A stretch of 64,000 nt of DNA from the IMG/VR virus record IMGVR_UViG_3300031949_000001, positions 64,001 through 128,000 of that record. The stretch is one strand, 5' to 3'. Within the stretch, counting starts at the first letter, position 1. Each line of letters opens with the position of its first letter. Of this stretch, positions 13,732 to 54,464 are shown one piece after another. This DNA comes from a virus. Its lineage: Duplodnaviria; Heunggongvirae; Uroviricota; Caudoviricetes. The notes below the pieces were generated by a model that saw only the letters and a program-made list of their open reading frames with translations, ran no database searches and was not told the origin of the DNA. The position numbers and the translations under genes are program-made.

Positions 13732-13745
13732 ATAAGGAGGAGAAT

Positions 13746-14000: not shown

Positions 14001-14006
14001 TATAAT

Positions 14007-14082
14007 GCTTCCGTAATTTAATTGGCTAAAATGATCGCCCGATTAGCGATTTTTGTTGGTTCGAATCCAGCCGGAAGTACCA
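14007..14082 (+). tRNA. tRNA-Ile(GAT) with atypical anticodon loop (C33, U37)
   Basis: GCTTCCG/CGGAAGT acceptor, ATCGC-CC GAT TA-GCGAT, GGTTCGAATCC, ACCA. Confidence 0.82.
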
Positions 14083-14097
14083 ATAGGAGATTTTGAA

Positions 14098-24884: not shown

Positions 24885-24885
24885 C

Positions 24886-25215: not shown

Positions 25216-25216
25216 T

Positions 25217-37591: not shown

Positions 37592-40500
37592 TTAGGTTTT
37601 AAACACTAAAAATTCGATTCGTGCGCTGAGCGCAGGCGTATAAGTAAACGTGATTGAACTTTGAATCGAACCATATGTGCCATCTTCCGTAAAGTCGTCG
37701 TCCAAAAATTGCTTGATACCGTTAACGAATATCCATACTCTATTTAGACCCTTGGTGTATTCCAATCCTGGTTGTGATAAAGTAAATCTGAAGTCATCAA
37801 ATACAACGTTGTTTAATGAAGCGAATAATGGGTTGGCTCCGCTATCGGCAATCACGATTGTCGAATTCGAACCACCTCCAGCAAACGTGCTTGAAATTCT
37901 AATTCTACCGTTTACAAGTTCTGCTTCCGCAGGCGAAATATCGGCGTTAAGTTGGGTAACCAAGGTCGTGAATGTTTGTGCTGTTGAACCTATAATGGAA
38001 ACTGGTGTTGTCACGCCATCAACGAACACTGTTGCTGTGTAAACTGTCGCATCATTGGCGAGTCCTGTTGTGTCCGCGCCAGCAATATCAATTTCGTCGC
38101 CTAGTAACGAAAAGGAAACTTCTTGGAAACCAAAACCAGCATCAAATCCAGCAATGGTAAGACTGTGTCCAAGCACGTATTGCACGGTAACACCATCTGC
38201 GGAAATTACATCACGAGCAATAAGCGTATCCGTCCAGAATTTTGTTACGATATCGAAGTCATTGACTGGTTGAAATTCGTATGAAATGCTACCATCAGGT
38301 ATACCCGGAGTCGTAGAAAAAGGAATTGTTTCAACGACCGTAATGGTTGTTACCTTGGAACTATCATTGAATGAAGAAGACAAGATAGTATACGTTCCAT
38401 TGTTGCCAATAAAGGAATCATTTATGTCAAAAGTTACACCAGGAGTTAGGCTAGTCGTGAAATCACCACCACCAATTGTAAATTCACTCGTTCCTGAATC
38501 TGCGGTAATGATAGGAACGTTGACCAATAATTGTGCTGACCCGGATACTGTAGGTCCAGATAGGTTGCTGACTGGTGTTACTGGTGTTGAACGTGGATTG
38601 ACCGTAAATGAAGCCAGAACTTCTGTTGGACGATTTGTGACATTGATCGTATCAAATCCAGTTAAAGCAGTTGTTAAACTTATAGTTGGATAGCCACTAG
38701 GGAGTGTCCCACCAAAGCCTGGAACTGCGGCTGAGATGGTTGTGAAGTTCGTTAGCTGATTAAAAATGTTTCGTATGGTTGTCGTGCTGGTAAAACCAAC
38801 GAAACCCGTCAACGAAGAGAATAACGGATTTACGCCTGTGTCAACAATCAAGAGAGAAGACGTAAGACCAGTAGTTGCGCTCGTGATTGTGATGTTTCCA
38901 CTTATGAGTGCGGCTGTACCGTTTACAGTAATGGCTGCGTTGATCGTTCCGAGAAGATCATTGTATGTTTGATTCAAGCTACCAGTTGCGGAAATTGGAT
39001 ATCCAACACCATCAATTGTTACGGTAGCTGTATAGACGGTTGCATCGTTGGTTAGACCGGTAAGATCGGTTCCTATATGAGTACCGCCCGTATTAACCAC
39101 ATCAAATGCTGCGTCCAGGATCGCTATTGTCGATGAAGAACCTGTTGACTTACTTTGAATTGTCAACCAAGTGTCGTTATCTACCAATTGCGCCACCGCA
39201 AAACCACCAAGTTGACCATTTAGGTCAGTGATTAATCCCAATCCTAATATGCTGAAATATTGATAGGTGAGTGTTGGGAAAACAGTGATGTATATTGGAG
39301 TACCACCATCAACTGTTATGATCGTTGTGTATGCGTCCGGGTTAGTCAAGCCCGTCAAGTTTGTGTTCAATTGAGAAAGTGAGAAGTTGACTCGCTGATA
39401 ACCTCCTGTTCCGAACAACCTATAGTACAAGTCTAGGTCGCTATTAGGTAGAATGAGGTATTGATCATCATCTGTTGAATGTAAATGTCCCATGTTTAAA
39501 ATGAACGGAACACCAGCGTTTGGACCAGTTTGTGTCAGATCTAAAGTTGATGTTGACGCCAAACCACCAGAAAATGTAAAGCTAGAAACATATGTGTCAG
39601 CACCAGGACCAGATACGGAATCTACATAAAACTTTGTCGCCGCATCTTGAGCAAGGGTAGGATCAGCCATATTTTTAATTTGGTTGAGACCCATGTTGAT
39701 CGTAGCACCAACAAAGTTTACAATACCAGTTATTGTACCACCTGTTAGTTGCAAGTAACGACTATCACCTGTAGCCATGTTTAGCGCATCGGTTGCTACC
39801 GTTGCATTACCAAGGTTTGTAATCTTGTTACCAGTCATGTTCAGGATACCTGACATCGTATCACCAGCCTTCAGAACATGGAGAGCATCTTGACTATCAA
39901 CATAAGTTTTTGTTGTGGCATCTGTGTTAAGTGTTGGAGTTCCAAGATTGATAATCTTGTTGAGACCCATATCAATTTGTCCAGTGCCGGTGAATTGAAT
40001 GCCAGCGGTGCCACTGAAGACCAACAAGCCTGACATCGTGTCTCCAGCCTTCAGAACATGGAGAGCGTCTTGTGCATCGACATAGTTCTTGTTGGTGGCA
40101 TCTGTACCAAGAGTTGGTGAGCCGAGATTGATAATCTTGAAGCCACCCATGTCTAGATCGCCAACTGGGGCACCGCTGAGTGAAATGGTATTCCAAATGG
40201 AGGCTTGAATATTTCCACCAGCCCCCTGGACCGCAGGTACGGATAGAACTGTGATGGTTGTGAATGCGGTGAATACTGCGGAGATAACGTTGTATATTCC
40301 ATCGTTCGCTACGGTACCAGTGACAACGAACGTGTTTCCTATCGGGAACGAAGCCACTTGGTTACCAGCAACAACGAATGTGTTGGTTGAATTACTTGCT
40401 GATAGAATGGGGAAATCTCTCGGAGAAAAAACGTACAAACCAGCTATTGTCGGATCAGTCGGATTTGATGGATCGAGAAAGCTTGCATTTTTGAACCAAA

Positions 40501-40762
40501 TTTGACCTTGAATCGGAAAAGCTGGACGAACATTGTTGGCAAAATGTTCGATCATGTTGACAAGGTTTTGATCTGTACGAGAGCCGTAATTTGGGTGTCC
40601 GCGTCCATAAAGCAATAAACTGGTATGACTTGCAGAGGCATCAATGTCCAAAGTAGGCGTAGAAGGCGCTACTGGTCCGTCCGTCCTAAAAGCCGGTAAA
40701 ATAAAAGCTAGTTTAGTCGGGTCAGTAAAATTAATTGTGTAGTTTGGATTTGGCAACGGCAT
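37592..40762 (-). CDS. long tail fibre protein
   Basis: YTINFTDP, TSLLLYGRG.PNYG, repeats of KIINLG.PT..TDAT.K.YVD.QDALHVLKAGDTMSG. Confidence 0.85.
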   Translation of the reverse strand: MPLPNPNYTINFTDPTKLAFILPAFRTDGPVAPSTPTLDIDASASHTSLLLYGRGHPNYGSRTDQNLVNMIEHFANNVRPAFPIQGQIWFKNASFLDPSNPTDPTIAGLYVFSPRDFPILSASNSTNTFVVAGNQVASFPIGNTFVVTGTVANDGIYNVISAVFTAFTTITVLSVPAVQGAGGNIQASIWNTISLSGAPVGDLDMGGFKIINLGSPTLGTDATNKNYVDAQDALHVLKAGDTMSGLLVFSGTAGIQFTGTGQIDMGLNKIINLGTPTLNTDATTKTYVDSQDALHVLKAGDTMSGILNMTGNKITNLGNATVATDALNMATGDSRYLQLTGGTITGIVNFVGATINMGLNQIKNMADPTLAQDAATKFYVDSVSGPGADTYVSSFTFSGGLASTSTLDLTQTGPNAGVPFILNMGHLHSTDDDQYLILPNSDLDLYYRLFGTGGYQRVNFSLSQLNTNLTGLTNPDAYTTIITVDGGTPIYITVFPTLTYQYFSILGLGLITDLNGQLGGFAVAQLVDNDTWLTIQSKSTGSSSTIAILDAAFDVVNTGGTHIGTDLTGLTNDATVYTATVTIDGVGYPISATGSLNQTYNDLLGTINAAITVNGTAALISGNITITSATTGLTSSLLIVDTGVNPLFSSLTGFVGFTSTTTIRNIFNQLTNFTTISAAVPGFGGTLPSGYPTISLTTALTGFDTINVTNRPTEVLASFTVNPRSTPVTPVSNLSGPTVSGSAQLLVNVPIITADSGTSEFTIGGGDFTTSLTPGVTFDINDSFIGNNGTYTILSSSFNDSSKVTTITVVETIPFSTTPGIPDGSISYEFQPVNDFDIVTKFWTDTLIARDVISADGVTVQYVLGHSLTIAGFDAGFGFQEVSFSLLGDEIDIAGADTTGLANDATVYTATVFVDGVTTPVSIIGSTAQTFTTLVTQLNADISPAEAELVNGRIRISSTFAGGGSNSTIVIADSGANPLFASLNNVVFDDFRFTLSQPGLEYTKGLNRVWIFVNGIKQFLDDDFTEDGTYGSIQSSITFTYTPALSARIEFLVFKT
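39849..40140 (-). repeat. tandem coding repeat in the fibre shaft
   Basis: CCAGCCTTCAGAACATGGAGAGC occurs twice about 180 nt apart (LHVLKAG units). Confidence 0.75.
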
Positions 40763-40801: not shown

Positions 40802-40808
40802 TATTTAT
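40802..40808 (-). promoter_or_regulatory. late-type promoter motif ATAAATA
   Basis: intergenic, about 40 nt upstream of the 1056-aa fibre gene. Confidence 0.6.
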
Positions 40809-40825: not shown

Positions 40826-42211
40826 TCAGGCAGCAACAATAGGGATGAAACGGCTTTTTTTCTTCGGAATTACCAGATCCAATTCAGGAAATTTTGGGTA
40901 GGTTGGCTCGTGTGGACTCTTGATGCCACGTTCTAGCATCTCAATTTCGCTATTAAATAGTAGTTTAAAGGCTGTCTGTTGAATCTGCGAATAATGAACA
41001 TACTCAACCGCATGGTTGGTATAGAAGACAGCCGATCCTAGATCTAGAGGACAGCTACTCTTGCACAATCTATAGACCGGACAGGTGCCGCAAAAGTCTT
41101 CTCTATCCAGATTGATACCAACCAATTTGACGTTTTTGAGATCATTTATATGTCCACTAACATAATGATCGTCGGTATTTTGGCATGTACGAATATTTCC
41201 ATTGATGTCCATGGAAATCAAATCACTATCATCAACACCACAACTGGTCTTCAAAAGCGGAATTCTCTGTTGTTTTAACAGCTTTGTGTATGGTATAACG
41301 CCCATTCCGGTATGGAAAAGACTGTTTGCCAGCAACTCACCATGCTTTACCGCTCCGATTTGCTTGAATTGAGCCAGATGGGCATCCAAATACGCCTTGA
41401 GAATTACTTTATATTTCTCCAAATGTTCACCGCTAATGACGTGATGAGTTGAATTCTTAGCCATAGTTTCGTCGTAAACACGCCCAACTTCGTAGCTGAT
41501 GGTAGTTTGCTTCAAACCATTCTTTTGAAAAAACTCATGGAAGAAATCATTTATTTTAAATAAATCATAATTTGTCTTGCTGATGACCGGATTGAAACTG
41601 AACTGTAGTTTAGGAAAACATTCATCCTGGATGCGTCTGAATACGTCAATCTTCTTGTGGATGAATTCCTTGCCTCGGGTTGATTCATGCGCGGGACCAT
41701 CGTGGCTGATACCAAAGGCTGTTTTACCCTTCAACTGCATCAGGAAATCGATATGCTTTTGCATCAGTGGAGTGCCGTTGGTGGGTATGTACCACGTTAA
41801 ACCCTCTCTATCAAATGCTTCCATGATTGGCATCATGTCTTTCCAATAGAGAAGCGTTTCACCACCCCAAAGTTCGATACGTTCTATCTTAGATAAATCG
41901 AAATTTCCCCTCATATTTTTGATTAGAGCGGGCGTTAAACCGTTTGGTGGGCGCTCATTGGGGTTTCCAATGTCTTTTTGCATACAATAGCCGCAGCTAT
42001 AGTTACATCCATGACCAAGGGTGATCTTAATTAGATGAGGATGATTGCTTTTTACGTTGGTGCGGAACTGACTATAGAGGTCTTCATAGTCGTCAGGAAC
42101 CACAATAGGAGAACTCAATGCTCGAAAGTCAGGATCGAGCAAGCCATTTGTCTCGTTATCATAGTAAAAATGTTCGCCCGTTCGGACGATTCTATACTTT
42201 GATAGGCTCAT
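40826..42211 (-). CDS. radical SAM / SPASM-domain protein
   Basis: CNYSCGYC, WGGE, TNG, SHDG; SPASM C..GNIRTC and CGTCPVYRLCKSSCP. Confidence 0.92.
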   Translation of the reverse strand: MSLSKYRIVRTGEHFYYDNETNGLLDPDFRALSSPIVVPDDYEDLYSQFRTNVKSNHPHLIKITLGHGCNYSCGYCMQKDIGNPNERPPNGLTPALIKNMRGNFDLSKIERIELWGGETLLYWKDMMPIMEAFDREGLTWYIPTNGTPLMQKHIDFLMQLKGKTAFGISHDGPAHESTRGKEFIHKKIDVFRRIQDECFPKLQFSFNPVISKTNYDLFKINDFFHEFFQKNGLKQTTISYEVGRVYDETMAKNSTHHVISGEHLEKYKVILKAYLDAHLAQFKQIGAVKHGELLANSLFHTGMGVIPYTKLLKQQRIPLLKTSCGVDDSDLISMDINGNIRTCQNTDDHYVSGHINDLKNVKLVGINLDREDFCGTCPVYRLCKSSCPLDLGSAVFYTNHAVEYVHYSQIQQTAFKLLFNSEIEMLERGIKSPHEPTYPKFPELDLVIPKKKSRFIPIVAA

Positions 42212-43394
42212 TGGTTCCTTTGAAGTTCTTGATTGGTATGTGTTTTAGTTTAATTTTCGGCTTTGTTGTGACTGAAACGATGGGAATCACAGTCCCGTTA
42301 AATTTTTGAGGTACTAGAAGTCCCAATTTATTCTCTACCGCATGTTTTTGGGCTAGCTTTTGGAACATTCGACTATATGGTTTGAGCATGAATTTCGGAA
42401 TGAAATTGTAATCGGGATGAATATTCACACTCGTGGTAATATAATTGTAATAATCCAGGTATTTATTTCCGCATGATCCAGCCATTCTCTCTACATTTTC
42501 ACCATACCAGTTGAGCTTTGCTTGGAGCATGAGTGGAATGAAGGTGATTGGATCAAACGGTTGATCTTCGATTGAAGCAAATGGTCTACCAGATTCTTCG
42601 ATTGACTCAACCAAAGTCAAGAAAAAATGGTCATATTGCATGTGCATGGCTTCACAGAGGATCAAAAACAAGAAACCACCTTGGCTGTACATCGTGGTGA
42701 TTTGATGATCTGCATTTTTAAGATCGTAGCGAATGTTCTTACTTTGAAGAATATCGTCATGTATGTCGGTATAAATGTCATTCTCTTTAGCCCAATCGAT
42801 AGCTTTCGCTGTGTTAGGCTCAGCATCTCCTTGTCGTTGGCTGATGATGAACTTGATTTTTTGTATCGGTTGTTTAACGTGTACATCAGTCAATCGCGCT
42901 ATAATATCATCTACGAACCGTCCGTCCTTTCTGTTCAAGAATATATCACTGAGAGTGACTTCATACGTCTTAGAAAAGCTCATCTCTTTCATCAAAATTT
43001 CGTGTTGCTGGATCAATGCTGTATCCGTCATTGAAGAACTGTACATTCGGTGGCTGTTTCTCTTATAGAAATCGAAGATATGTGGATAGTTCTTTTTTAT
43101 AAAAAATAAATCATCGAGAGATGCAGCTATATCAAAGTGATCCCATGTTTCGACTATTTTTTCTTCCATGATGGTTGGAATGTTAAGCGGAACGTATGCT
43201 CCAAAACTTTCATCCGGCATCCAATTTTTTTGAACATAACATAGTTTACATCCTGCCTTGCACATATATCGTTTGAAGATTGAGAACGACACTTGTGTAT
43301 CGAGGTTGCACAGCGCATCGTTCTTCAAGAAGAACTCCTTGAAATTGCCTGTATCTTCGAAATTAGGGGCTGCCGCCCATGTAGGTTGCATCAT
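42192..43394 (-). CDS. divergent radical SAM-like protein
   Basis: CKAGCKLC (CxxxCxxC), but no GGE motif or SPASM cysteines. Confidence 0.65.
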   Translation of the reverse strand: MMQPTWAAAPNFEDTGNFKEFFLKNDALCNLDTQVSFSIFKRYMCKAGCKLCYVQKNWMPDESFGAYVPLNIPTIMEEKIVETWDHFDIAASLDDLFFIKKNYPHIFDFYKRNSHRMYSSSMTDTALIQQHEILMKEMSFSKTYEVTLSDIFLNRKDGRFVDDIIARLTDVHVKQPIQKIKFIISQRQGDAEPNTAKAIDWAKENDIYTDIHDDILQSKNIRYDLKNADHQITTMYSQGGFLFLILCEAMHMQYDHFFLTLVESIEESGRPFASIEDQPFDPITFIPLMLQAKLNWYGENVERMAGSCGNKYLDYYNYITTSVNIHPDYNFIPKFMLKPYSRMFQKLAQKHAVENKLGLLVPQKFNGTVIPIVSVTTKPKIKLKHIPIKNFKGTNEPIKV

Positions 43395-44500
43395 ATGCCG
43401 ATCCAGTGTAATAAGGTTGGCTTTTCCTTGAGTTTTTGAGCGTGAAGAATGAGAATGTCAACCATTTTATAGAACTCAACGCATGAGTCTCCAGGTACTT
43501 GATCCCACATGTGGTATAGAAATTTGATACCACAGCTATTTCTCGAAGGACAAATCTTACATTTGTCGTGAATGAGTTGTTCTTCGCGCGCCGCCTCGTC
43601 TCTATATACTTTTATCACAGGAGCACCACCCTCGTCAAATTCTCTTCGCCATTCACCGATAACAGTCTCGTGCTGTTGATACTCTAAAAAGTCATACTCT
43701 GGATAGATGAATCCATCGGGAGACAGCACGAGTTGCTTATGATTGTCGTAGTAGTGCTTGTCTATACCATCACCGTGACCATCGACATTGACATCAATGC
43801 CTTGGATGTAGAGCATTTGGATGAATTTTAGGAAAGCGTGAAAGAACTGTTTCAAATCAGGAATCTCGTCAATCATTGATTTGAACTTTGTTTTACCACG
43901 TAAATGACGCAGAGGAATTAAATCGACCTTACGAACGTTATGCTTGTTGCAAATATCTGTTATTGCTTTTAGATTTCGAAGGCTAAACGCCTCTTTGTGT
44001 TGAACTGGAAGAACGTATTGAAGCTGGGTATTGCTTGTTTTGTGCTTTGTCAGGACCGCAAGGGCATCATGGATGTTGAAGTCTGTACGATTGATTGGTT
44101 GAAAGATAAAATCGTAGCTGATACTGATGTTCAAACGACTATTCCACTTCTCAAAGAACCATTCGTTTTTAGCTATACGGCTACCGTTGGTCTGAATGAA
44201 TATTGGAAAGGTCTGTCCTGGAAATTCCAGTGTGATGGCGTCCATGATTTTATCGATCAATTTGATCCAAATCAATGGTTCTCCTCCATGAAAACTCAGC
44301 ATCGGCACTGGAAATTGCCCATCCGTGCTCATTTGTTTCAGGAAATAGATGATGTGCGGAATGTCCGTTTCTTCTAGTTGCTGATTACCGATATCATTTT
44401 TGATGAAATCTCGATCACAATATGTGCAATTGAAATTACAGGCATTGCCTAGATATATGCTAACATCGTTGCATCCTGGCAGCTTTGATATGTGTTCCAT
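43391..44500 (-). CDS. radical SAM protein with partial SPASM domain
   Basis: CNFNCTYC, FHGGEP, QTNG, SYD; first SPASM Cys pair missing, CKICP..SCG..C retained. Confidence 0.9.
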   Translation of the reverse strand: MEHISKLPGCNDVSIYLGNACNFNCTYCDRDFIKNDIGNQQLEETDIPHIIYFLKQMSTDGQFPVPMLSFHGGEPLIWIKLIDKIMDAITLEFPGQTFPIFIQTNGSRIAKNEWFFEKWNSRLNISISYDFIFQPINRTDFNIHDALAVLTKHKTSNTQLQYVLPVQHKEAFSLRNLKAITDICNKHNVRKVDLIPLRHLRGKTKFKSMIDEIPDLKQFFHAFLKFIQMLYIQGIDVNVDGHGDGIDKHYYDNHKQLVLSPDGFIYPEYDFLEYQQHETVIGEWRREFDEGGAPVIKVYRDEAAREEQLIHDKCKICPSRNSCGIKFLYHMWDQVPGDSCVEFYKMVDILILHAQKLKEKPTLLHWIGI

Positions 44501-44503
44501 GTG

Positions 44504-46252
44504 TTATAGTTTGACGATCTTCTTCCCGTGCAACTTGTCGTCAAGTTTCTCTCCTTTGTTGTTCAAGACAAGCATGTGTAGAAGAGCTAAGTAGAATACT
44601 TTTTTGTCAAGGGATAGCTCTGTAATTTGTTGGCTTGTTCTAACAGGAGTACCGTGAAGTTCACATAATTTTTCGTAGAATTCTTTGATGGTGAGTGGCG
44701 TCGCGTTACTCTCATTAATTTCACTTAGATAGTCACAAGCGCATGTAAGAGCCTTCTGATAACGATAGGTTTTGCCGCGCTCTTTTGCGAGTTCGTAAAA
44801 TCGTCCCAAGATCAATTTGTAATCCGGGAGTTTATCGATGAATATGTCAACTTCACCGACTGGAATATGGAAACCTGTAATGTGTTTGTACATCAGATGG
44901 GAAATAGCTTTGGCAAAGATAGGTTGTTCGCCCTTTTCGGCGACCGCTTCTACAAGATCTCTATGCTTCTTTTGGAATCCTTTTTTGACTAGATCGTTTT
45001 GAAGATCCAAGAACAATTGTACAACCTTTTGACACATGTCATCTGGTCTAAACATACGACCAGAAGCGTCCATATTACCGGCTGGACACTGATAACAGAA
45101 GTTCTGAAGGTCACAAGTTTTGCATTGTTCTTCTACGATGAACATTTCTTTATATGCTTTTTGAAAGTGATCATAACGATCAATGTAAAGTTTGTCTTCG
45201 AAAATGTTCCCAAGGATGGTATCTGCTGCTTTTTCCTTTTGATTAGTGAAGAAATAGCAACCAGAAAAGTCACCGGAGCCGTCAATTGCGATCATATCCG
45301 ATCCAACCATACAGTTGTTCTCTTCCTTTACACCCACACCTTCTGCGAATTGAATCTCAAAGTCGTAGAAATTGTCAAGAATGTAAAGAATGTCGTGATG
45401 AAGTTTCTTCCATTCAGCTTCTGACCAATGAATGTAACCGTCACGCGAACTCATGGTCAATGGATGGACGACCATCGTACGGAGTCCTTTATCGAAAAGC
45501 TTGGATACAAATTCGATTAGATATGGTGCATTCTCACGGGATAGCGTGCATCGAACACCAACCATATGATTATCTTTGAACGATTGCGGAATCAAGCCGA
45601 TCATGTCAATAATGTGGTCGATTCTATCTTGACCAATTTCGCGATGATCGACCTCTTCACGCATCGTATCTAGACTGATTGTCATGTTTACGAATTCGTA
45701 GTTGAAAAACTCTTCGATGAAATCTGGAGTCAATAAAAGACCGTTGGTAATCATACCGACGTGCTGACGATTCATGTTACCAATCAAGTAGTCTTTATAC
45801 TTCTTCAAGAATCCGATTATGAGGTCTTTATGGATCAGAGGTTCACCACCGAAGAACTGGAATTTCTTTCCAGAATTTTCATTGATGTTCAATAGAAAAT
45901 CGTAGGCTTTCAGAATAGATTCTTCTGTGAATCGACCATAGTCTTTTTTATGTTGTTCATAGCAATACGAGCATGATAGGTTGCAAGCGTTCGTTAAAAT
46001 AGCGTTCATGTGTTGCAAGTCGGCAAACATGGTTGCGCGCATCTCTGTGATTGTGATGATCTTTTCGGTTGGCTTTGGAACTACGGAAATGAGACTGTTT
46101 TTCTTTTGAAAACCTTTTGGGGTTGTGATCATTTCGACAGAAATTTTTAACTGACCGTCACCCGTAGCAGATGCTGCGTGATCTTGAATACGTTCAAGCT
46201 GGGCGCTGTTAAGCTTTCGATATATCGATATCGGTTGTGCAACGGCATTCAT
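44504..46252 (-). CDS. radical SAM / SPASM-domain protein with C-terminal extension
   Basis: CNLSCSYC, FFGGEP, ITNG, SLD; CMVG..GDFSGC, CKTC..FCYQCPAG..MC. Confidence 0.93.
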   Translation of the reverse strand: MNAVAQPISIYRKLNSAQLERIQDHAASATGDGQLKISVEMITTPKGFQKKNSLISVVPKPTEKIITITEMRATMFADLQHMNAILTNACNLSCSYCYEQHKKDYGRFTEESILKAYDFLLNINENSGKKFQFFGGEPLIHKDLIIGFLKKYKDYLIGNMNRQHVGMITNGLLLTPDFIEEFFNYEFVNMTISLDTMREEVDHREIGQDRIDHIIDMIGLIPQSFKDNHMVGVRCTLSRENAPYLIEFVSKLFDKGLRTMVVHPLTMSSRDGYIHWSEAEWKKLHHDILYILDNFYDFEIQFAEGVGVKEENNCMVGSDMIAIDGSGDFSGCYFFTNQKEKAADTILGNIFEDKLYIDRYDHFQKAYKEMFIVEEQCKTCDLQNFCYQCPAGNMDASGRMFRPDDMCQKVVQLFLDLQNDLVKKGFQKKHRDLVEAVAEKGEQPIFAKAISHLMYKHITGFHIPVGEVDIFIDKLPDYKLILGRFYELAKERGKTYRYQKALTCACDYLSEINESNATPLTIKEFYEKLCELHGTPVRTSQQITELSLDKKVFYLALLHMLVLNNKGEKLDDKLHGKKIVKL

Positions 46253-46262
46253 GTGTTGCCCT

Positions 46263-47186
46263 TTATGATTTTACGACTACGAATTCAAACTCCAGCTTTT
46301 CAGCCGGATCTACCATGTTGAAAAACTTGCCTGCGTCAATTGAATACTTGATGTATCCTATAGGTTTAGTGACTTGAACGCTAAGCTTATTTCCGTCCTG
46401 TGGAATAACGGTTAGATCGCTTGAAATGGTAACTTCCAAGTTAGGAATTGTTCCTTCAGTAGCATGGTGTTTGAAAATAGTTCTACCGAACAAATCGATA
46501 GTGAACTGATCGGTCGTGGCGATTAAAACGTTTGACCCGATTTTGATGACAGTGTCTCCAAATTCCGGTGCGAAGAAGTTCTCTTTTATGTGAGTTTTAC
46601 TATCGAGGCGATATGTTATGTCATTTTTTTCATCTGTGTAATCGAGTCCATCAGAGAGTTTGACAAGGTTCGAATCGAGAATCATGTAATAAACCGAAAG
46701 AGGCTTCATTTTAACCATACCGAAAAGAGTCGTGATGAAGGTGACCTTTTGATTTTGGTTTGTGTTAATTGGTTCTTTGGTATCGTAGTCGATAAGAACA
46801 TCATTCTCATCACGAATTACATACTTTGCATTTTGGATGAGCGAGTAATCAACAACTAGATGACTGTCAGAGTAGAATCCGAATAATACGAAATCGTAAC
46901 CCGAATCAAGGATGCTCATCATCTTCTTGGTATCAATTGGTCTGAATGTGTCTTCGTTTTGAGTTGCTTGTGTAGGATCAACAGTAAAGTGAAATAAAGC
47001 AAGAGGTAATTCTGGTTTTGTTTCGGTCCGATTCCGACCAATACGAAGATTGAAATCCATGTGAGTATAGAACCCGACCTGTTGATCATAGTCTATCTTG
47101 TCAGCACGCATGTTTACGGTTTCCATTAAATCACGGAAAATGCTAGGTTTTGCGTCGCCTTCCTTTACAAAAATAAACGTCTTCAT
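46263..47186 (-). CDS. hypothetical protein coupled to the Cys-rich gene
   Basis: 307 aa, TAATG overlap with 47186-47467. Confidence 0.8.
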   Translation of the reverse strand: MKTFIFVKEGDAKPSIFRDLMETVNMRADKIDYDQQVGFYTHMDFNLRIGRNRTETKPELPLALFHFTVDPTQATQNEDTFRPIDTKKMMSILDSGYDFVLFGFYSDSHLVVDYSLIQNAKYVIRDENDVLIDYDTKEPINTNQNQKVTFITTLFGMVKMKPLSVYYMILDSNLVKLSDGLDYTDEKNDITYRLDSKTHIKENFFAPEFGDTVIKIGSNVLIATTDQFTIDLFGRTIFKHHATEGTIPNLEVTISSDLTVIPQDGNKLSVQVTKPIGYIKYSIDAGKFFNMVDPAEKLEFEFVVVKS

Positions 47187-47467
47187 TAAAGGGTTCCTCT
47201 AGTGCATGCGCAGTTACAGTTGCAGTTGCATGCTGTACTGTAATCGTCATAAAAGATGTGGGTATGGTCGATCAACTCATTCAACACGTCGAGCATTTGA
47301 TTAAAGCTACTAGCGGTAGCATCATTTCCATCCACTCTATCTGCTGCGGGCGTTTGTTGCGGAGTGTATGTATTAACCGGAAAACCGGTTGTTGGATCAG
47401 CACCAGGAGGACTATCGGGTACTTTTGCGTTTGCCCCGGTTCTTGCCGGTCCTAATGTGTTCGACAT
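47186..47467 (-). CDS. 93-aa protein with C-terminal (Cys-X)5 tract; candidate radical SAM substrate
   Basis: ends HTHIFYDDYSTACNCNCNCACTRGTL; AAGGA RBS. Confidence 0.85.
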   Translation of the reverse strand: MSNTLGPARTGANAKVPDSPPGADPTTGFPVNTYTPQQTPAADRVDGNDATASSFNQMLDVLNELIDHTHIFYDDYSTACNCNCNCACTRGTL

Positions 47468-47476
47468 TTTTTATCC

Positions 47477-47950
47477 TTATGACGTTTGATCACTAATTTG
47501 ATGCGAATGGGTTCGCACGAAATTGATCCCCTGATTTATTACATTGAAATCTGTGTTACTTAATTCACTACCCGGTGGACTTGTTGGAAGAACACCACCT
47601 GATAGTGGTGTAACGACAGTGACTGGACCAGGGGCACCTGTTATCGCAGTTGTAGACTTTGGGTTTGGTGTTCCGAAGGTACCACCACCATAAACTGGGA
47701 AGTTACCAAAAGTGTCCACACCTCGCAAGTCTGGATAAGCGTGCGTGTGTAATCTATACGCATTGTAGATGCCTGCCAAAATTCGAAAGTGTACAGCCTC
47801 AATTACATGACCAGCCACCACAACAGCTTTTAAAGTCAAAATCGCAGCCTTAAACCCAGCAATAGTCGCAGCCGCTGATCCACTTGGATATTGTGGTGGT
47901 GCTGCTGGAAATGTTATTGTTCCTGGAAGTGTTCTTTGTACTGTTGGCAT
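47477..47950 (-). CDS. hypothetical virion-like protein with two HxH motifs
   Basis: RLHTHAYPD and RTHSHQISD, similar to the HTH..D motif of the 93-aa neighbour. Confidence 0.75.
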   Translation of the reverse strand: MPTVQRTLPGTITFPAAPPQYPSGSAAATIAGFKAAILTLKAVVVAGHVIEAVHFRILAGIYNAYRLHTHAYPDLRGVDTFGNFPVYGGGTFGTPNPKSTTAITGAPGPVTVVTPLSGGVLPTSPPGSELSNTDFNVINQGINFVRTHSHQISDQTS

Positions 47951-47992
47951 ACTTCAATTATCCACTTATTTCAACGGTTGTCAACATCTATC

Positions 47993-49555
47993 TTATGTGT
48001 AGATTGCTGGATATACTTGTATCCAATCGGAACTGGTTGCGGCACCGCCGCCGATATGCGCTACAATCCAAATTTTACCAGTGACTGTGCCAATGTAAAT
48101 GTTACCTTGACCAAACGGTGTAATGTTGTCGCCTGTTGGACCTGGACCATTAGCATGGGTTCCCGTAAATGTATATGCTGCTGTCTGACCACCAGGAACC
48201 TGGAAGGTTGGAGTCACGAGAGGAGAAACTGCCTTTGAAATTTCAAGCAAAACGTAATTTCTCGTAGCCGCATCTTGTGCGAGAAGCGGATCGGTGACGC
48301 TTCGAATTAAGTTAGTTCCCATATCCATTGGGGCTGTGCCAGCACCAACGAAATTGAGTGAACCAGTCATTGTGTCGCCGATTATGTTTACGTATCTACC
48401 ATCTGCGAATGATAATGTCATCGCATCTTGTGCCGCAAGCGGATCGGTGACATTAGTAATTCTGTGGCTTCCCATATCAAGGATGCCCGTCATTGGTGAA
48501 TTTGCACCATCAATCTTGAGATATATGAGGTTTGCGGATGCGACGTTTAATCCACCAGTGCCATTAGCGAGATTACCATTAGCACCCGAACCAACTGGAA
48601 TGGTGCTTGCTGTAACGGTAATGTTTGTGTCTGGACCACTGTTTGCAGAAGCAACAACCGTATATGCGATATTGGCGGCATTCAAAGAATTGTTATCAAC
48701 GTAAACTGTATCACCCACCGTAAACAAAGATTGATGATTTCCGGAAATCGTCCAAGCATTAGCAAGACCAATCGTAACTGCGACGATATTAAATGCAGTG
48801 TTCGCGAGATTTATGATGTTGTTTCCATTCATATTCAACGTTGTGTTCGCAACTGTCGTTTGAATAGGAACAAATGTGACACCATCCCAAACAGTTAGTA
48901 TTGGTGGGACCGTAGAGTAATCAAAATAAACTTGACCGATAATTGGTGATGGTGGTTGCTGTGAGACTTCTACCTGTCCTGACGGAACTCCTTGAGCGAC
49001 AGGGACTGTAGGTGAATACACAGTTGATGTGATTTCGGTCTGATCTGTACCACTGTTCCAAAATGACGAAATTACTTGATATACACCATTATTTGCTGGA
49101 AAAGATGAATCATTTCCAACAGCAAAATTCACGCCAGCGCTAAATGCCGTCGTTTGGTCTCCTGCAATATAGAGTTTGAGTGGTGCTAATGTAACTGCTA
49201 ACAAATTAAAGTTGAAAGAAATGACGTTACCTGGAGCTAGAGTCCAACCCGACGCCGTGAAAACCTTAAGTGTGCTTACTGCATAATCGAACCAAGTCTG
49301 ACCAATTGTTGGGAGCGTCGGTTCTATACCGTCACTTGCGAAATTTTCTAAGAGATGAACAAAGTTATCATCGATCATTTGCCCGTATCTAAGGGCACCT
49401 TGACCAAAAAGGGTGAGGGATGTGTGGGCTTTTTCTGGATGAGGAGGTAGAACTAATAATTGATCCGGACCGTCGTGTTGCGCTGGCGCGATTGTGAAGG
49501 TCGTTTTTCCAGGCAACGTAGAGTCTGTGAATTGTATGGCGTATACTGAGGACAT
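47993..49555 (-). CDS. tail fibre / baseplate-associated protein
   Basis: YAIQFTD, TSLTLFGQG..YG..NFVHLLENF..GQTWFD, ITNVTDP..AQDA repeats. Confidence 0.85.
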   Translation of the reverse strand: MSSVYAIQFTDSTLPGKTTFTIAPAQHDGPDQLLVLPPHPEKAHTSLTLFGQGALRYGQMIDDNFVHLLENFASDGIEPTLPTIGQTWFDYAVSTLKVFTASGWTLAPGNVISFNFNLLAVTLAPLKLYIAGDQTTAFSAGVNFAVGNDSSFPANNGVYQVISSFWNSGTDQTEITSTVYSPTVPVAQGVPSGQVEVSQQPPSPIIGQVYFDYSTVPPILTVWDGVTFVPIQTTVANTTLNMNGNNIINLANTAFNIVAVTIGLANAWTISGNHQSLFTVGDTVYVDNNSLNAANIAYTVVASANSGPDTNITVTASTIPVGSGANGNLANGTGGLNVASANLIYLKIDGANSPMTGILDMGSHRITNVTDPLAAQDAMTLSFADGRYVNIIGDTMTGSLNFVGAGTAPMDMGTNLIRSVTDPLLAQDAATRNYVLLEISKAVSPLVTPTFQVPGGQTAAYTFTGTHANGPGPTGDNITPFGQGNIYIGTVTGKIWIVAHIGGGAATSSDWIQVYPAIYT

Positions 49556-49586: not shown

Positions 49587-49593
49587 TATTTAT
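49587..49593 (-). promoter_or_regulatory. late-type promoter motif ATAAATA
   Basis: intergenic, upstream of the fibre gene that heads the radical SAM run. Confidence 0.6.
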
Positions 49594-52237: not shown

Positions 52238-52471
52238 TCATTTCACTCGAACTTCGTTGGTCGTTTCAATCCAGAGTACAGCACCGCATTGGAGAGGCTT
52301 CTCTGGACGATAAACGATCTCACACACAATCTCATCATTAACGATGATTTGAGCGTTGTGTCCGCGTATGTTGCCCTTGCTAGTCTTAACGGAAATGACT
52401 GGTTCTTTCGTCCCATGCTTCCGATTCTTAGCTATGGCGTGTCTATTGACGTGTATTCTGGACAGTGGCAT
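52238..52471 (-). CDS. conserved phage hypothetical protein
   Basis: IHVNRH.I..N.K.G..EPVISVK, Y.P.KPL.CGA..WIET. Confidence 0.7.
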   Translation of the reverse strand: MPLSRIHVNRHAIAKNRKHGTKEPVISVKTSKGNIRGHNAQIIVNDEIVCEIVYRPEKPLQCGAVLWIETTNEVRVK

Positions 52472-54464
52472 TGAATTCTTTCCAAAGGTTGCTATAAGGT
52501 GAGATCATCGCTTCGATGGATGGTTTTAGATTAGGTAGATATGGTTTAGAAAGGATCATAAAGTCGGTTGCTTTGATTGCTCTATGTTGGAGCAGTTCAT
52601 TAACGATGATCTTAAACAATTCTGAATTCCGTAGGATTGTATCTCTAGCCAATTGTTTTTGTTTTTCCACCAATCGATGGATTTTTTTATCAAATTCTTT
52701 GTAGTTTGATGGTGCCCATTCATCATTTTGAGGGTGTCTAACCTGTGCAGTAACACTACTAAATGCCATCTGTTTGTAATATCTTGAAGCGAATTCGGTT
52801 GCTGCTTTAATATCACGCCATGCTCCGGTTGTAGAGTTTATCTGTCCGAACACGAGTTCTTCGGCGACTCGCCCTCCCAATGCAATAGCTATACGATTCA
52901 GGAAAGCCTGTTTGTTAGTCGCTTCTTCTTCATCGTAAGAAGTGTATCCGCCTTTAAATGTCGCTAAATTAATCTTGATTTCTGCTGGTGGGCAGTTATT
53001 CAATACAGCAAACACCATCCCATGTCCAGCTTCGTGAACCGCAACCAATGTATTGAAGTCAATAGTATTACGCAGCCGCTGCGCTCGAATGTCTAATTGG
53101 ATCGGTAAATTATGAAATACCTCAATTCCTTCGAACACGTAACTGCCGGTGAGAATACTCTTATCATCATCAATAGTCACAGAAATGCCATATTGATTAT
53201 TTTCAACAGCCCAAATAGCTAAATCAACTAACGGAGAACTCAAAATCTGATGGATAGATGAAAAGACCGGTCGAGTACCTTGTGCTGGAAAGACTGAATT
53301 ATTGTAAATTTCTTGATAGACTGATGGCTTTAAATCAAATTCGACGCCTATATTTTGAAGAAGCTTAGCCGTATACTTTTTTGCTGTTGATTCGATAATC
53401 AATTCATAACTTCTTTTGGCTAGAGAAGGATAGATTATGTGATTGTTTCCAAGCCGCGCGATCTGTTCTTTACGAAAACGCTCCAATAAAGCCGCTTTGA
53501 TATCGATCACCGAAATCTTTTTGGTTAGATCATGAAAAACATCAGCATCGGTATCACAGTCTTCAATACCACCGACCATTCGATAAGCTTCATCCAGATT
53601 TCCGCAAACAAAAATCAGCAACTTGGAAAAGTCGATTTCATTAGAAATACGACTCTTAAGTGCTTCATGACATAAGAAATTAATTTTTTGAAGATCCCAT
53701 GTCATGATTTCGGGGACTGGCTCCTTGAGCTTGAGGAGTTTCTTGTAGTCTACGGCTTCCCAAGGCGAAAGTTTGAACTTACGAATTATGATTTTCTTTT
53801 TCTTTTTGCGTCTTTTTGGAGCTTTACCTTCCTCTTTTGCACTGGAAGAGGTTTCTGCTCCACTGCTCTCACCAAGCTCATCGTCATCGGAGGCAGCTTC
53901 GTCTGACGCTTGTTTCCAATCCTCGTCATACATGCTCTGTGTAAGTTCTCGCTCAATCTTTGAGTACAACGAATAGTCAGTGGAGAACTTACCATCACTT
54001 AGTAACATCCAAACATCTTGAAAACGCTTCACATCCAATTCTTTTGAGTCACCCTTACTGTCTAGTTCGATGGTACGGAAGCGTTGAAATTCATCCAACA
54101 AAAGAATTCCAGGCTCACCTTCGTTGATAGCGGATGCTTGGAGAATAGAACAGATGGAATCTTGATAGAAGCCAGAACCGATGCTAAAACCATCCATTTG
54201 AATTTCGACAAACTTGTCTTGAAACTGAAGCTTTTTTACAAGGCTACGTACAAGGGCGGTTTTGCCGACGCCCGTTAGCCCCCAAAGATTGATGATAACT
54301 GGATAACTCAATGCTTGTGGAAGGAGATACCATGTAGAAACCGAATCGATGACACGGTCAATAATCGCATCTAAACCGAAGAATTCAGTTTTTAGTTCAT
54401 CTCTAATTACATAAAGCGCTTCTCGTCTTTGCTTGATAACATCTATGATTGTCGTATCAGTCAT
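52443..54464 (-). CDS. soluble AAA+ ATPase fused to an M41 (FtsH-type) metallopeptidase
   Basis: GLTGVGKT, LLLDEFQ, VAVHEAGH, LGGRVAEELVFG, TGA..DI..AT; no TM segment. Confidence 0.85.
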   Translation of the reverse strand: MTDTTIIDVIKQRREALYVIRDELKTEFFGLDAIIDRVIDSVSTWYLLPQALSYPVIINLWGLTGVGKTALVRSLVKKLQFQDKFVEIQMDGFSIGSGFYQDSICSILQASAINEGEPGILLLDEFQRFRTIELDSKGDSKELDVKRFQDVWMLLSDGKFSTDYSLYSKIERELTQSMYDEDWKQASDEAASDDDELGESSGAETSSSAKEEGKAPKRRKKKKKIIIRKFKLSPWEAVDYKKLLKLKEPVPEIMTWDLQKINFLCHEALKSRISNEIDFSKLLIFVCGNLDEAYRMVGGIEDCDTDADVFHDLTKKISVIDIKAALLERFRKEQIARLGNNHIIYPSLAKRSYELIIESTAKKYTAKLLQNIGVEFDLKPSVYQEIYNNSVFPAQGTRPVFSSIHQILSSPLVDLAIWAVENNQYGISVTIDDDKSILTGSYVFEGIEVFHNLPIQLDIRAQRLRNTIDFNTLVAVHEAGHGMVFAVLNNCPPAEIKINLATFKGGYTSYDEEEATNKQAFLNRIAIALGGRVAEELVFGQINSTTGAWRDIKAATEFASRYYKQMAFSSVTAQVRHPQNDEWAPSNYKEFDKKIHRLVEKQKQLARDTILRNSELFKIIVNELLQHRAIKATDFMILSKPYLPNLKPSIEAMISPYSNLWKEFNATVQNTRQ

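What the first reader, a model, noticed from the sequence alone, without database searches (positions are those of the whole stretch)
40826..47950. Candidate new system: RiPP-like radical SAM cassette with a (Cys-X)5 substrate embedded in the tail-fibre operon
Seen, in transcription order: fibre (520 aa), 157-aa HxH protein, 93-aa protein ending ACNCNCNCACTRGTL, unknown 307 aa, rSAM/SPASM 582 aa, rSAM 369 aa, divergent rSAM 400 aa, rSAM/SPASM 461 aa, then three more fibres and an RCC1 propeller. From the 157-aa gene to the last rSAM, genes overlap or are at most about 10 nt apart. The run starts behind a late motif (49587), and a possible internal TTGACA-16-GATAAT lies at 47957-47984. No protease or exporter is present. 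Established: rSAM/SPASM enzymes install thioether (sacti/ranthipeptide) and other crosslinks on Cys-rich precursors encoded beside them. Inference: the phage crosslinks or metallates a small virion-attached protein, making a constrained CxCxC tip for receptor binding, stability or metal-uptake mimicry, rather than a secreted peptide. Four maturases for five Cys suggests site-specific or hetero-oligomeric action.
Basis: partly seen in the sequence, partly recalled or inferred. Interest (0 to 1): 0.9.

Follow-up and report, generated by a model that had tools for sequence, protein, structure and literature searches.

The report
Radical-SAM-matured cysteine-tailed phage fibre protein
A 379-kb phage carries, among its tail-fibre genes, four radical-SAM enzymes beside a tiny protein that ends in Cys-X-Cys-X-Cys; the same tail ends true tail fibres next to the same enzyme type in many other phages, so phages probably modify the tip of their host-recognition gear enzymatically, which no paper I searched describes.

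Summary
On the minus strand, 47950-40826, seven tightly packed genes follow a fibre gene:
- a 157-aa protein with two HxH modules;
- a 93-aa protein ending in CNCNCNCAC-TRGTL;
- a 307-aa protein with an Ig-like C-terminus;
- four proteins that all keep the CxxxCxxC radical-SAM triad.

The core order (small protein, then 582-, 369-, 400- and 461-aa enzymes) is the same in all 29 related loci examined. These include Ralstonia jumbo phages RP12/RP31, where the small gene is unannotated.

The small protein is one HxH module plus a (Cys-X)3-6 tail. Each cassette holds three HxH modules, split 2+1 or, in one locus, 1+2.

Beyond this family, CNCNCNC tails end PHROG-confirmed tail-fibre proteins. An rSAM of the 461-aa type follows downstream in 25 of 38 such cases, against 3 of 44 for chance-frame matches.

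Best reading (about 0.6): rSAM enzymes modify, probably cross-link, a cysteine tail on a fibre-associated protein. It is not a secreted peptide.

The chemistry and presence in virions are untested. "One enzyme per Cys" is not supported. This scan has noted related CXXX-type fibre systems on other DNA. I found no publication on either.

The parts
47993..49555 (-). 520-aa fibre-like protein at the head of the run. An ATAAATA late-type motif at 49587-49593 lies 32 nt upstream of its ATG.
   Evidence: (weak tail and tail-fibre PHROG hits, E 3e-8 to 6e-4).
47957..47984 (-). Sigma-70-like TTGACA-16-GATAAT (11 of 12) in the 42-nt gap, ending 6 nt before the ATG of the 157-aa gene. Function is unproven.
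   Evidence: Promoter-like sites are not enriched in the region as a whole (20 found against 24.4 expected).
47477..47950 (-). 157-aa protein with two helix-HxH-x3-D modules (H68/H70/D74 and H148/H150/D154) around a Gly/Pro-rich insert. In relatives the insert is a variable domain (beta-propeller, Gly-rich domain, fibre-like segment). Proposed adhesin-like partner of the Cys-tailed protein.
   Evidence: phrog_31780; His and the second Asp invariant in 140 sequences; D74 kept in at least 90%; AF2 pLDDT 76, three helices; no significant PDB fold match.
47186..47467 (-). 93-aa substrate candidate: variable N-terminus, one helix-HxH-x3-D module, then DY-x-T-x-(Cys-X)5-R-G-x-x at the C-terminus. 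An AAGGA ribosome-binding site lies upstream.
   Evidence: 451 clusters at 90% identity; the only such ORF in the 379-kb genome.
46263..47186 (-). 307-aa accessory protein: N-terminal alpha/beta domain with no match, and a C-terminal Ig-like beta-sandwich (residues 198-307). It evolves fast, has no conserved Cys, and lies on either side of the precursor or is absent in relatives.
   Evidence: no family; pLDDT 78.7; Z about 6, generic Ig-like.
44504..46252 (-). 582-aa rSAM/SPASM enzyme: C90/C94/C97, GGE, and seven conserved SPASM cysteines (C314, C332, C377, C380, C386, C389, C407). It has a conserved 85-aa N-terminal domain and a C-terminal extension. Closest to the ranthipeptide/SCIFF thioether synthases CteB and PapB.
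   Evidence: PapB 118 bits; CteB 5wgg, E 6e-19 and 4e-20.
43391..44500 (-). 369-aa rSAM enzyme: C21/C25/C28, GGE, and four conserved C-terminal cysteines (C314, C317, C323, C340), enough for one auxiliary cluster.
42192..43394 (-). 400-aa divergent rSAM-like protein (phrog_36229): invariant C45/C49/C52, no GGE motif and no SPASM cysteines.
   Evidence: no family; hhalign to the 582-aa core, E 1.8e-4.
40826..42211 (-). 461-aa rSAM/SPASM enzyme: C69/C73/C76, GGE, and six conserved SPASM cysteines including CX2CX5CX3C. This is the rSAM type found alone downstream of Cys-tailed tail fibres in other phages.
37592..40762 (-). 1056-aa tail-fibre protein directly downstream. An ATAAATA motif at 40802-40808 lies in the 63-nt gap before it.
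   Evidence: (tail-fibre PHROGs, E 2e-18).

Best explanation
This is a conserved jumbo-phage module that modifies, after translation, a small fibre-associated protein. It is not a pathway to a secreted peptide.

Shown:
- The 93-aa protein is one helix-HxH-x3-D module plus a C-terminal (Cys-X)n-R-G-x-x tail.
- The 157-aa protein holds two such modules around a variable, adhesin-like insert.
- Four enzymes with intact radical-SAM cluster triads always follow, in a fixed order.
- The whole set sits among tail-fibre genes.

Inferred:
- The three HxH modules pack into one pseudo-threefold bundle. Its six His could hold a metal ion, as HxH motifs do on the axis of T4 gp37 and gp12. One Cys tail projects from the bundle.
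- One or more of the rSAM/SPASM enzymes then convert the tail cysteines into covalent links. The 461-aa type is generally paired with Cys-tailed fibres, and the 582-aa enzyme is CteB/PapB-like. Cys-derived thioethers are the most likely product.
- The result is a rigid, protease-resistant and redox-inert tip or joint in the host-recognition apparatus.
- The 369-aa and 400-aa enzymes add further steps, or act on the conserved HxH-[IF]-[FY]-Y-D-D-Y stretch.
- The Ig-like 307-aa protein is an accessory or adaptor.
- The phage's own A-type Fe-S carriers may load the clusters.
For: 1. The cassette is real and under selection. The precursor, 582, 369, 400, 461 order is kept in 27/27 loci at 41-56% identity and in an Ewingella isolate scaffold and an Alteromonadales MAG. 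The precursor family has 451 clusters at 90% identity. The Cys, HxH, D and R-G positions are invariant or nearly so.
2. All four enzymes keep CxxxCxxC, and two keep SPASM cysteines. The 582-aa enzyme's best solved relative is the thioether synthase CteB, and its best NCBIfam hit is PapB.
3. The precursor is homologous to the HxH protein. Exactly one of each occurs in every locus. Modules are split 2+1, or 1+2 in L035, which is a Rosetta-stone-type argument for physical association.
4. The HxH family carries variable central domains: a beta-propeller, Gly_rich_2 and a fibre-like segment.
5. Fibre context holds in independent lineages.
6. (Cys-Asn)n tails end true tail-fibre proteins, with a 461-type rSAM downstream. 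Cultured examples are JWF gp028 and the RSP15 side fibre.
7. One precursor carries a mini-intein inside the Cys repeat, which shows the tail is translated.
8. This is the only (CX)n-tailed ORF in the whole 379-kb genome.
Against: - There is no experimental evidence for any modification or for virion presence.
- RP31 virion mass spectrometry found 32 proteins and none from this cassette. The small ORF was unannotated, so it was not in the search database, and the gel-band method had low depth.
- No rSAM here reaches the curated cut-off of any characterised maturase family, so the chemistry is open. Thioether, formylglycine, other cross-links, or only metal binding all remain possible.
- The X positions include Ala, so a side-chain-specific acceptor such as Asp or Asn cannot be general.
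- The HxH fold has no solved relative. The three-module bundle and the metal site rest on motif logic alone.
- The HxH module is mostly a stand-alone small protein and not the end of long fibres.
- Simple systems need one rSAM, so the roles of three of the four enzymes are unexplained.
Confidence: 0.6

Rival explanations
1. A classical RiPP. The helix-HxH region is only a leader recognised by the maturases. The modified Cys-rich core is cut off and released at lysis, or acts inside the cell, as a bioactive peptide such as an antimicrobial, a metallophore or a host-takeover factor.
For: A small precursor sits directly upstream of CteB/PapB-like rSAM/SPASM enzymes. A conserved region precedes a Cys-rich C-terminus. 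Relatives add tailoring-type enzymes: a DUF3050 haem-oxygenase-like protein and a rubrerythrin-like protein. The 582-aa enzyme has an N-terminal domain where RiPP maturases carry their recognition element.
Against: No protease, exporter or immunity gene is conserved with the cassette in 29 loci. The 'leader' is homologous to a two-module protein with variable display domains and is fused to it in L035. The same tail is the C-terminus of 200-600-aa tail-fibre proteins elsewhere. One relative has a 115-aa domain inserted ahead of the module.
Confidence: 0.12
2. The Cys tail is not covalently modified. It binds a metal or an Fe-S cluster, perhaps as a metal chaperone for the HxH sites. The rSAM enzymes act on something else: other residues of the HxH proteins or fibres (for example the His/Tyr-rich HxH-FYDDY stretch), or a non-protein substrate.
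For: Alternating Cys is a good thiolate ligand set. The invariant HxH-x3-D motifs suggest metal sites. The 369-aa enzyme's weak best hits include cyclophane-forming and His-Xaa-Ser maturases, which act on aromatic or His residues. The X positions are poorly conserved.
Against: The co-occurrence of (CN)n tails with the 461-type rSAM is strong where no HxH module is present. SPASM enzymes closest to CteB and PapB act on Cys. Free thiol ladders on an extracellular virion would oxidise.
Confidence: 0.13
3. An assembly-only factor. The small protein and the HxH protein are chaperones or scaffolds for fibre folding, as T4 gp38 and gp57A are, and are absent from the finished particle. The rSAM chemistry serves assembly.
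For: Fibre genes are commonly followed by small assembly factors. RP31 virion MS did not detect the HxH or 295-aa orthologues. The 307-aa gene is variable and dispensable in some loci.
Against: In other phages the Cys tail is part of the fibre polypeptide itself. Variable display domains in the HxH family fit a receptor-facing role better than a chaperone role.
Confidence: 0.1

Closest known systems
Ranthipeptide/SCIFF systems: CteB with CteA (PDB 5wgg) and PapB with PapA
   Same: An rSAM enzyme with a SPASM domain holding two auxiliary clusters is encoded next to a small Cys-rich substrate with repeated Cys. The 582-aa enzyme aligns with CteB over the rSAM core and SPASM domain (E 6e-19) and has PapB as its best NCBIfam hit (118 bits).
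   Different: Scores lie far below the family cut-offs (340 and 425 bits). The Cys spacing is every second residue, not CX3D or SCIFF-like. There are four rSAM-type enzymes, not one. The substrate carries a structural HxH module and sits in a virus tail-fibre module. No protease or exporter is present.
QhpD with QhpC (quinohaemoprotein amine dehydrogenase gamma subunit)
   Same: From established knowledge: an rSAM/SPASM enzyme installs several Cys-to-Asp/Glu thioethers in a small subunit. That subunit stays whole and is built into a larger protein complex, which is the logic proposed here. The NCBIfam QhpD model hits the 582-aa enzyme at 68.6 bits.
   Different: The hit is below the 453-bit cut-off. 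No QhpC-like sequence, no protease and no dehydrogenase context are present. The X residues include Ala, Asn and Gln.
CXXX-repeat rSAM target system (NCBIfam TIGR04115 maturase) and the CXXX-type phage fibre modules noted earlier in this scan
   Same: A Cys-repeat substrate lies next to rSAM/SPASM maturases. Earlier AI notes of this scan describe Cys-every-fourth proteins with rSAM enzymes inside tail-fibre modules of other giant phages, which is the same biological theme.
   Different: TIGR04115 scores only 75 bits against a 350-bit cut-off. The repeat period here is 2, not 4. This family adds the HxH modules, the four-enzyme order and the R-G-x-x end. The earlier notes are unpublished and were not re-tested here.
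HxH metal sites of phage fibres and spikes (T4 gp37 tip, T4 gp12, P2 gpV)
   Same: From established knowledge: HxH motifs from three chains coordinate Fe or Zn on the three-fold axis. Here three HxH modules per cassette have identical spacing and invariant His.
   Different: There is no sequence or fold similarity to those proteins. The modules here are helix-led and spread over two polypeptides. Metal binding is untested.
Anaerobic sulfatase-maturing enzyme (anSME)
   Same: It is an rSAM/SPASM enzyme that acts on a Cys of a folded protein substrate in a C-x-[PA]-x-R motif. The 461-aa enzyme aligns end to end, though weakly, with TIGR03942 (E 3e-5). The tail ends in C-x-C-x-R.
   Different: The score of 23 bits is far below the 349-bit cut-off. 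The motif has Cys where sulfatases have Pro or Ala. No sulfatase is present.

Membership tests
Radical SAM superfamily (Pfam PF04055) | CxxxCxxC cluster motif and a score above the Pfam gathering cut-off (29.5 bits) | tested here: met
   The 582-, 369- and 461-aa proteins score 66.7, 34.5 and 41.1 bits. The triads are invariant in 18-25 homologues, and GGE is present.
Radical SAM superfamily, the 400-aa protein | CxxxCxxC plus a detectable rSAM core | tested here: inconclusive
   C45/C49/C52 are invariant in 20 homologues. There is no Pfam or NCBIfam hit. hhalign to the 582-aa family gives E 1.8e-4 and probability 48% over 163 collinear columns. No GGE motif.
SPASM domain (PF13186 / TIGR04085) | Seven-Cys motif for two auxiliary [4Fe-4S] clusters and a score above the cut-off | tested here: inconclusive
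   582-aa: seven conserved Cys with CX2CX5CX2C, but PF13186 scores 19.5 bits against a 21.5 cut-off. The alignment to CteB runs through its SPASM region. 461-aa: six conserved Cys with CX2CX5CX3C, and TIGR04085 scores 23.7 against 27. 369-aa: only four C-terminal Cys.
PapB-family ranthipeptide maturase (NF047865) | Score at or above the curated cut-off of 340 bits | tested here: not met
   118.4 bits for the 582-aa protein. This is its best NCBIfam hit and covers 322 of 330 model positions.
SCIFF maturase (TIGR03974) | Score at or above 425 bits, with a SCIFF-type precursor | tested here: not met
   81.3 bits. The precursor has a (Cys-X)n tail and not the SCIFF pattern.
CXXX-repeat target maturase (TIGR04115) | Score at or above 350 bits, with Cys at every fourth residue in the target | tested here: not met
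   75.2 bits. The repeat period here is 2.
QhpD (TIGR03906) | Score at or above 453 bits | tested here: not met
   68.6 bits.
RiPP biosynthetic cluster (general definition) | A precursor peptide encoded beside its modifying enzymes | tested here: met
   The small ORF lies directly upstream of, or one gene away from, the rSAM genes in 29 of 29 loci.
RiPP biosynthetic cluster (general definition) | Leader removal and export: a protease and a transporter in the cluster | tested here: not met
   Pfam and PHROG scans of cassette and neighbouring genes in the window and in representative relatives (L002, L007, L009, L011, L018, L021, L035) found none. The FtsH-like gene at 52443-54464 is not linked to the cassette in the relatives examined.
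RiPP biosynthetic cluster (general definition) | A RiPP recognition element (PqqD-like) in a maturase or partner | tested here: inconclusive
   A conserved 85-aa N-terminal domain is present in the 582-aa enzyme. It gives no PqqD hit, and the CteB alignment starts only at the rSAM core. The domain was not folded.
HxH metal-binding fibre motif (T4 gp37/gp12 type) | HxH motifs from three chains or modules that coordinate one metal ion | not testable with these tools
   Both HxH pairs and the second Asp are invariant in 140 sequences, and the first Asp is kept in at least 90%. There are three modules per cassette. No complex prediction or metal analysis was possible, and there is no fold match.
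Hint/intein domain (in relatives: JWF gp028, P0257, P0122) | A Hint-family Pfam hit above the cut-off, starting at a Cys | tested here: met
   JWF gp028: Hom_end_hint 47.5 bits against 32.1, from residue 308, right after the Cys repeat. P0257: 36.5 bits. P0122 has no Pfam hit, but its insert is homologous to inteins in other phage proteins.

The most novel reading that the evidence does not exclude
Phages of several unrelated lineages use dedicated radical-SAM/SPASM enzymes to cross-link a (Cys-X)n tail at the distal end of their host-recognition fibres. That would be an enzymatic 'hardening' of a virion part by RiPP-type chemistry. In this jumbo-phage family the tail is carried on a separate 65-95-aa subunit. 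That subunit completes a three-module HxH metal-binding bundle with an adhesin-like partner and is processed by four rSAM enzymes.
Probability: 0.4. Interest if true: 0.9.

Novelty: new variant of a known kind. Interest (0 to 1): 0.8.

Why it matters
- It would be a new kind of virion maturation. Covalent cross-links in virus particles are known mainly from autocatalytic chemistry, such as the HK97 capsid chainmail. Fe-S radical enzymes acting on host-recognition proteins would be different.
- It would move rSAM/SPASM 'RiPP' chemistry from secreted peptides to structural proteins of viruses.
- It would explain why many large phages carry puzzling sets of radical-SAM genes and Fe-S carriers inside structural gene clusters. 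Such sets have been noted without explanation for phage 332-Vera (PMC12390700), RP12/RP31 (PMC5468394) and marine T4-like genomes (PMC5332604).
- It gives a simple genomic marker for fibre-tip proteins: a C-terminal (Cys-X)n tail plus an rSAM of the 461-aa type.
- It points to a new, sequence-defined enzyme-substrate family with hundreds of members for enzymology.
- It is directly testable in cultured systems: RP12/RP31 on Ralstonia, JWF on Achromobacter, and RSP15.

Tried and rejected
- 'One enzyme per Cys' is rejected. The Cys count is 3, 4, 5 or 6 with four enzymes throughout.
- 'The HxH module is the C-terminal tip of long fibres' is not supported. Of the 150 best of 258 representative clusters, nearly all are stand-alone proteins of 120-160 aa. 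The few longer ones carry inserted or appended domains.
- Is the 307-aa protein the 260-320-aa helper found between fibre and rSAM in simple systems? hhalign gives probability 0.1% and hmmsearch finds only same-family loci. No detectable relation.
- Fold of the 307-aa protein: only a generic Ig-like C-terminal domain (Z about 6). The N-terminal domain has no match. The Atlas lead to Big_5 scored 0.79, which is below any useful threshold.
- Fold of the HxH protein: Foldseek found nothing. The best VIA-align rows are TssK neck regions at Z 4.1-4.5, within noise.
- Profile searches of the PDB with the precursor and HxH families gave only chance hits.
- Near-identical DNA in cultured phages: none. 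The HxH protein by tblastn in cultured phages: none.
- Late-motif enrichment: ATAAATA is not above chance in the window.
- Literature: seven searches found no paper on rSAM maturation of fibre Cys tails. The library lacks most subscription journals, so this does not prove absence.

Full report
**What is there.** The window is bases 64001-128000 of a 378,912-bp IMG/VR virus record, 94% complete and 41.5% GC. It encodes T4-type replication genes, a clamp loader and a helicase. No near relative exists among cultured phages.

On the minus strand a 520-aa fibre-like gene (47993-49555) is followed by seven tightly packed genes:
- 157 aa, 47477-47950;
- 93 aa, 47186-47467;
- 307 aa, 46263-47186;
- 582 aa, 44504-46252;
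- 369 aa, 43391-44500;
- 400 aa, 42192-43394;
- 461 aa, 40826-42211.

Gaps and overlaps between them are +9, -1, +10, +3, -4 and -20 nt. Next come a 1056-aa tail-fibre protein, two large proteins without family hits, and an RCC1-propeller protein. A TTGACA-16-GATAAT site lies in the 42-nt gap before the 157-aa gene. ATAAATA motifs lie before the 520-aa gene and between the last rSAM and the 1056-aa gene, but the motif is not enriched overall.

**The enzymes.** Pfam Radical_SAM scores above its cut-off for the 582-, 369- and 461-aa proteins. I aligned 18-25 homologues of each:

| Protein | rSAM triad | GGE | Other conserved Cys |
|---|---|---|---|
| 582 aa | C90/C94/C97 | yes | seven SPASM-type Cys |
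| 369 aa | C21/C25/C28 | yes | four C-terminal Cys |
| 461 aa | C69/C73/C76 | yes | six SPASM-type Cys, including CX2CX5CX3C |
| 400 aa | C45/C49/C52 (invariant) | no | none |

The 400-aa protein has no family hit other than phrog_36229. It aligns weakly but collinearly with the rSAM core of the 582-aa family (hhalign E 1.8e-4).

The 582-aa enzyme's best solved relative is the SCIFF thioether synthase CteB, over core plus SPASM domain (5wgg; E 6e-19 singly, 4e-20 as a profile). Its best NCBIfam hit is PapB at 118 bits. No enzyme reaches any curated family cut-off. They work like peptide-modifying rSAM/SPASM enzymes but are members of no characterised family.

**The linkage is conserved.** A search of IMG/VR with the 582-aa protein gave 26 loci at 45-56% identity. 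tblastn of cultured phages found the Ralstonia jumbo phages RP12 and RP31 at 44%. In all 27 loci the order small ORF, 582, 369, 400, 461 is kept as far as the contig reaches.
- In RP12 the small gene, 65 aa and ending in CNCNCNCAC-TRGSL, is not annotated. The authors listed the rSAM genes without comment (PMC5468394).
- Two more copies lie in genome assemblies: a 253-kb scaffold of Ewingella americana E4 and an Alteromonadales MAG.
- RP12 is phiKZ-like and the window phage has T4-type genes, so the cassette is shared by unrelated jumbo-phage lineages.
- The 307-aa gene lies on either side of the small gene or is missing.
- Relatives often add a DUF3050 haem-oxygenase-like gene after the last rSAM, and a rubrerythrin-like gene. 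The window lacks both.

**The small protein.** Its consensus is a variable N-terminus, then a helix (F/Y-x-Q-M-L-x-V-L-x-x-L), H-x-H-[IT]-F-Y-D-D-Y-x-T-x, (Cys-X)n, and R-G-x-x at the end. The HxH pair, an Asp, the first and last Cys, and R-G are invariant.
- X is N, E, Q, D or A. The number of Cys is 3, 4, 5 or 6.
- The family has 451 clusters at 90% identity in public metagenomes, all unnamed.
- It is the only (CX)n-tailed ORF in the whole phage genome.
- Among longer relatives, one has a 115-aa domain inserted before the helix.
- Another has a mini-intein inserted inside the Cys repeat. That insert is homologous to inteins in other phage proteins.

**The partner.** The 157-aa protein (phrog_31780) has two copies of the same helix-HxH-x3-D module. 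Both HxH pairs and the second Asp are invariant in 140 sequences, and the first Asp is kept in at least 90%.
- Profile comparison shows the small protein is homologous to this module (probability 91.5%, E 8.6e-7).
- A local HMM search finds exactly one such protein and one small protein in every locus.
- In the Ewingella locus the modules are split differently: an 85-aa ORF with one module, and a 122-aa ORF with the second module fused to the Cys-tailed one.
- So each cassette always has three modules. This is the basis for my inference that they form one pseudo-threefold bundle with six His, as HxH motifs do in T4 gp37 and gp12 (established knowledge). I could not test this.
- An exhaustive profile search found 258 representative clusters. 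Most are 120-160 aa.
- The longer ones have a beta-propeller, a Gly-rich domain or a fibre-like segment inserted between the modules, or a Hint domain appended. A conserved stem that displays a variable domain is what an adhesin would look like.
- AF2 gives a three-helix model (pLDDT 76) with no significant PDB match.
- The 307-aa protein folds with pLDDT 78.7 into an unmatched N-terminal domain and a generic Ig-like C-terminal sandwich.

**Fibre context beyond this family.** The cassette is flanked by tail-fibre, RCC1-fibre and giant structural (phrog_358/DUF4815) genes in independent loci, even where strand and order differ.

Distant homologues of the 461-aa enzyme (25-27% identity over 90-97% of its length) lie directly behind fibre genes in two cultured phages:
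- In Achromobacter siphophage JWF, gp028 is a fibre that carries NCNCDCNCNCS immediately before a C-terminal Hint domain.
- In Ralstonia phage RSP15 (Ackermannviridae), the side fibre ends in NCQCGN.

A scan of IMG/VR for DNA encoding CNCNCNC gave at least 120 stretches, of which 80 were fetched:

| Reading frame of the match | Cases | 461-type rSAM on the same strand, downstream where the tail is C-terminal |
|---|---|---|
| ORF of at least 100 aa (motif almost always at the extreme C-terminus) | 38 | 25 |
| Short chance frame | 44 | 3 |

Fisher's exact test gives p = 1.5e-8. Two of the three short-frame positives are true members of the small-protein family, and several of the 13 negatives are cut by contig ends.

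Seven of ten tail-bearing proteins tested hit tail-fibre PHROGs, with E down to 2e-48, and one also has collagen repeats. These simple systems have a single rSAM and a conserved 260-320-aa helper. The helper is not detectably related to the 307-aa protein.

**Reading.**
- Shown: a conserved enzyme-substrate-like cassette, homology of the small protein to its partner, the fibre context, and the general pairing of (Cys-X)n fibre tails with one rSAM clade.
- Inferred: the tail cysteines are the rSAM substrate. The product stays on a fibre-associated protein. The chemistry is thioether-type cross-linking, from the CteB/PapB likeness and from QhpD/QhpC as a precedent for a cross-linked subunit that stays whole. 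The three HxH modules form a metal-binding bundle.
- Against: no experiment exists. RP31 virion MS (32 proteins) found none of the cassette products, though the small ORF was not in the database. The roles of three of the four enzymes are unknown.

**Novelty.** Seven literature searches found only passing mentions of unexplained rSAM genes in phage structural clusters (PMC12390700, PMC5468394, PMC8066314, PMC5332604). None mentions a Cys-tailed substrate.

Earlier AI notes of this scan describe a related theme on other DNA, CXXX-repeat proteins with rSAM enzymes in fibre modules. So the scan has seen this kind before. The present case differs in its period-2 repeat, the HxH modules and the four-enzyme set.

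I class it as a new variant of a known kind: rSAM/SPASM maturation of Cys-rich substrates, in a new biological role.

Noticed in passing
P0122 (metagenome protein, 206 aa; relative of window 47186-47467): A precursor homologue with a mini-intein of about 135 aa inserted inside the Cys repeat (...CNCNCN | CFEEETKV...TMN | CTCCVRG...). The insert is homologous to inteins in phage portal-like and other proteins (L028, L030-L034).
   Followed up: partly
P0121 (metagenome protein, 210 aa): A close relative of the window's 93-aa protein, about 90% identical over the C-terminal module and tail, with a beta-rich domain of about 115 aa inserted before the helix-HxH module. This is unusual for a mere leader peptide.
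   Followed up: no
L001:8889-9086 (Ralstonia phage RP12, record 82888-83085): The 65-aa Cys-tailed gene is not annotated in RP12 or RP31, between ORF074 and ORF075. It therefore could not have been found by the published virion proteomics.
   Followed up: yes
L035 (Ewingella americana E4 scaffold8.1, 253 kb), 4647-14200: A complete cassette lies in a cultured isolate's assembly, behind a 464-aa fibre. The HxH modules are split 1+2, the tail has six Cys, and the 582-type rSAM has a Cys/Gly/His-rich N-terminal extension of about 110 aa. The scaffold may be a jumbo phage carried by the strain.
   Followed up: partly
L002:15119-15874 and equivalents; L009:8075-8863: Relatives add a DUF3050 (haem-oxygenase-like) gene overlapping the end of the last rSAM (258 bits; RP12 ORF080, 'MgoB-like') and a rubrerythrin-like 262-aa gene. 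Both are absent from the window, so oxidative tailoring is optional.
   Followed up: partly
window 24775-25215 and 25193-25543 (+): Two adjacent A-type Fe-S carrier-like ORFs, with a GGGCSGF motif in the first and C-G-C-G-x-S-F ends in both. They were read from sequence only and are plausible cluster donors for the rSAM enzymes.
   Followed up: partly
window 52443-54464 (-): A 673-aa FtsH-like AAA+/protease-related protein lies about 4.5 kb upstream of the cassette, next to replication genes. It is not conserved with the cassette in the relatives.
   Followed up: partly
L039:5263-6078, L050, L051, L052, L057, L065, L071, L072, L087, L100-L102: In single-rSAM systems a conserved helper ORF family of 260-320 aa (12 members by BLAST clustering, including RSP15 ORF047) lies between the Cys-tailed fibre and the rSAM. 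It has no Pfam family and no detectable relation to the window's 307-aa protein.
   Followed up: partly
L038:4802-6253 (Achromobacter phage JWF gp028); P0229, P0257: Hint domains without a C-extein follow either the Cys repeat of a fibre or the second HxH module. This suggests autoproteolytic release, or thioester chemistry, at exactly the position where the Cys tail or module ends.
   Followed up: partly
G000:C1:283287-283703 (-), outside the window: A fifth radical-SAM gene (292-aa frame, 31 bits) lies elsewhere in the phage genome. It was not examined.
   Followed up: no
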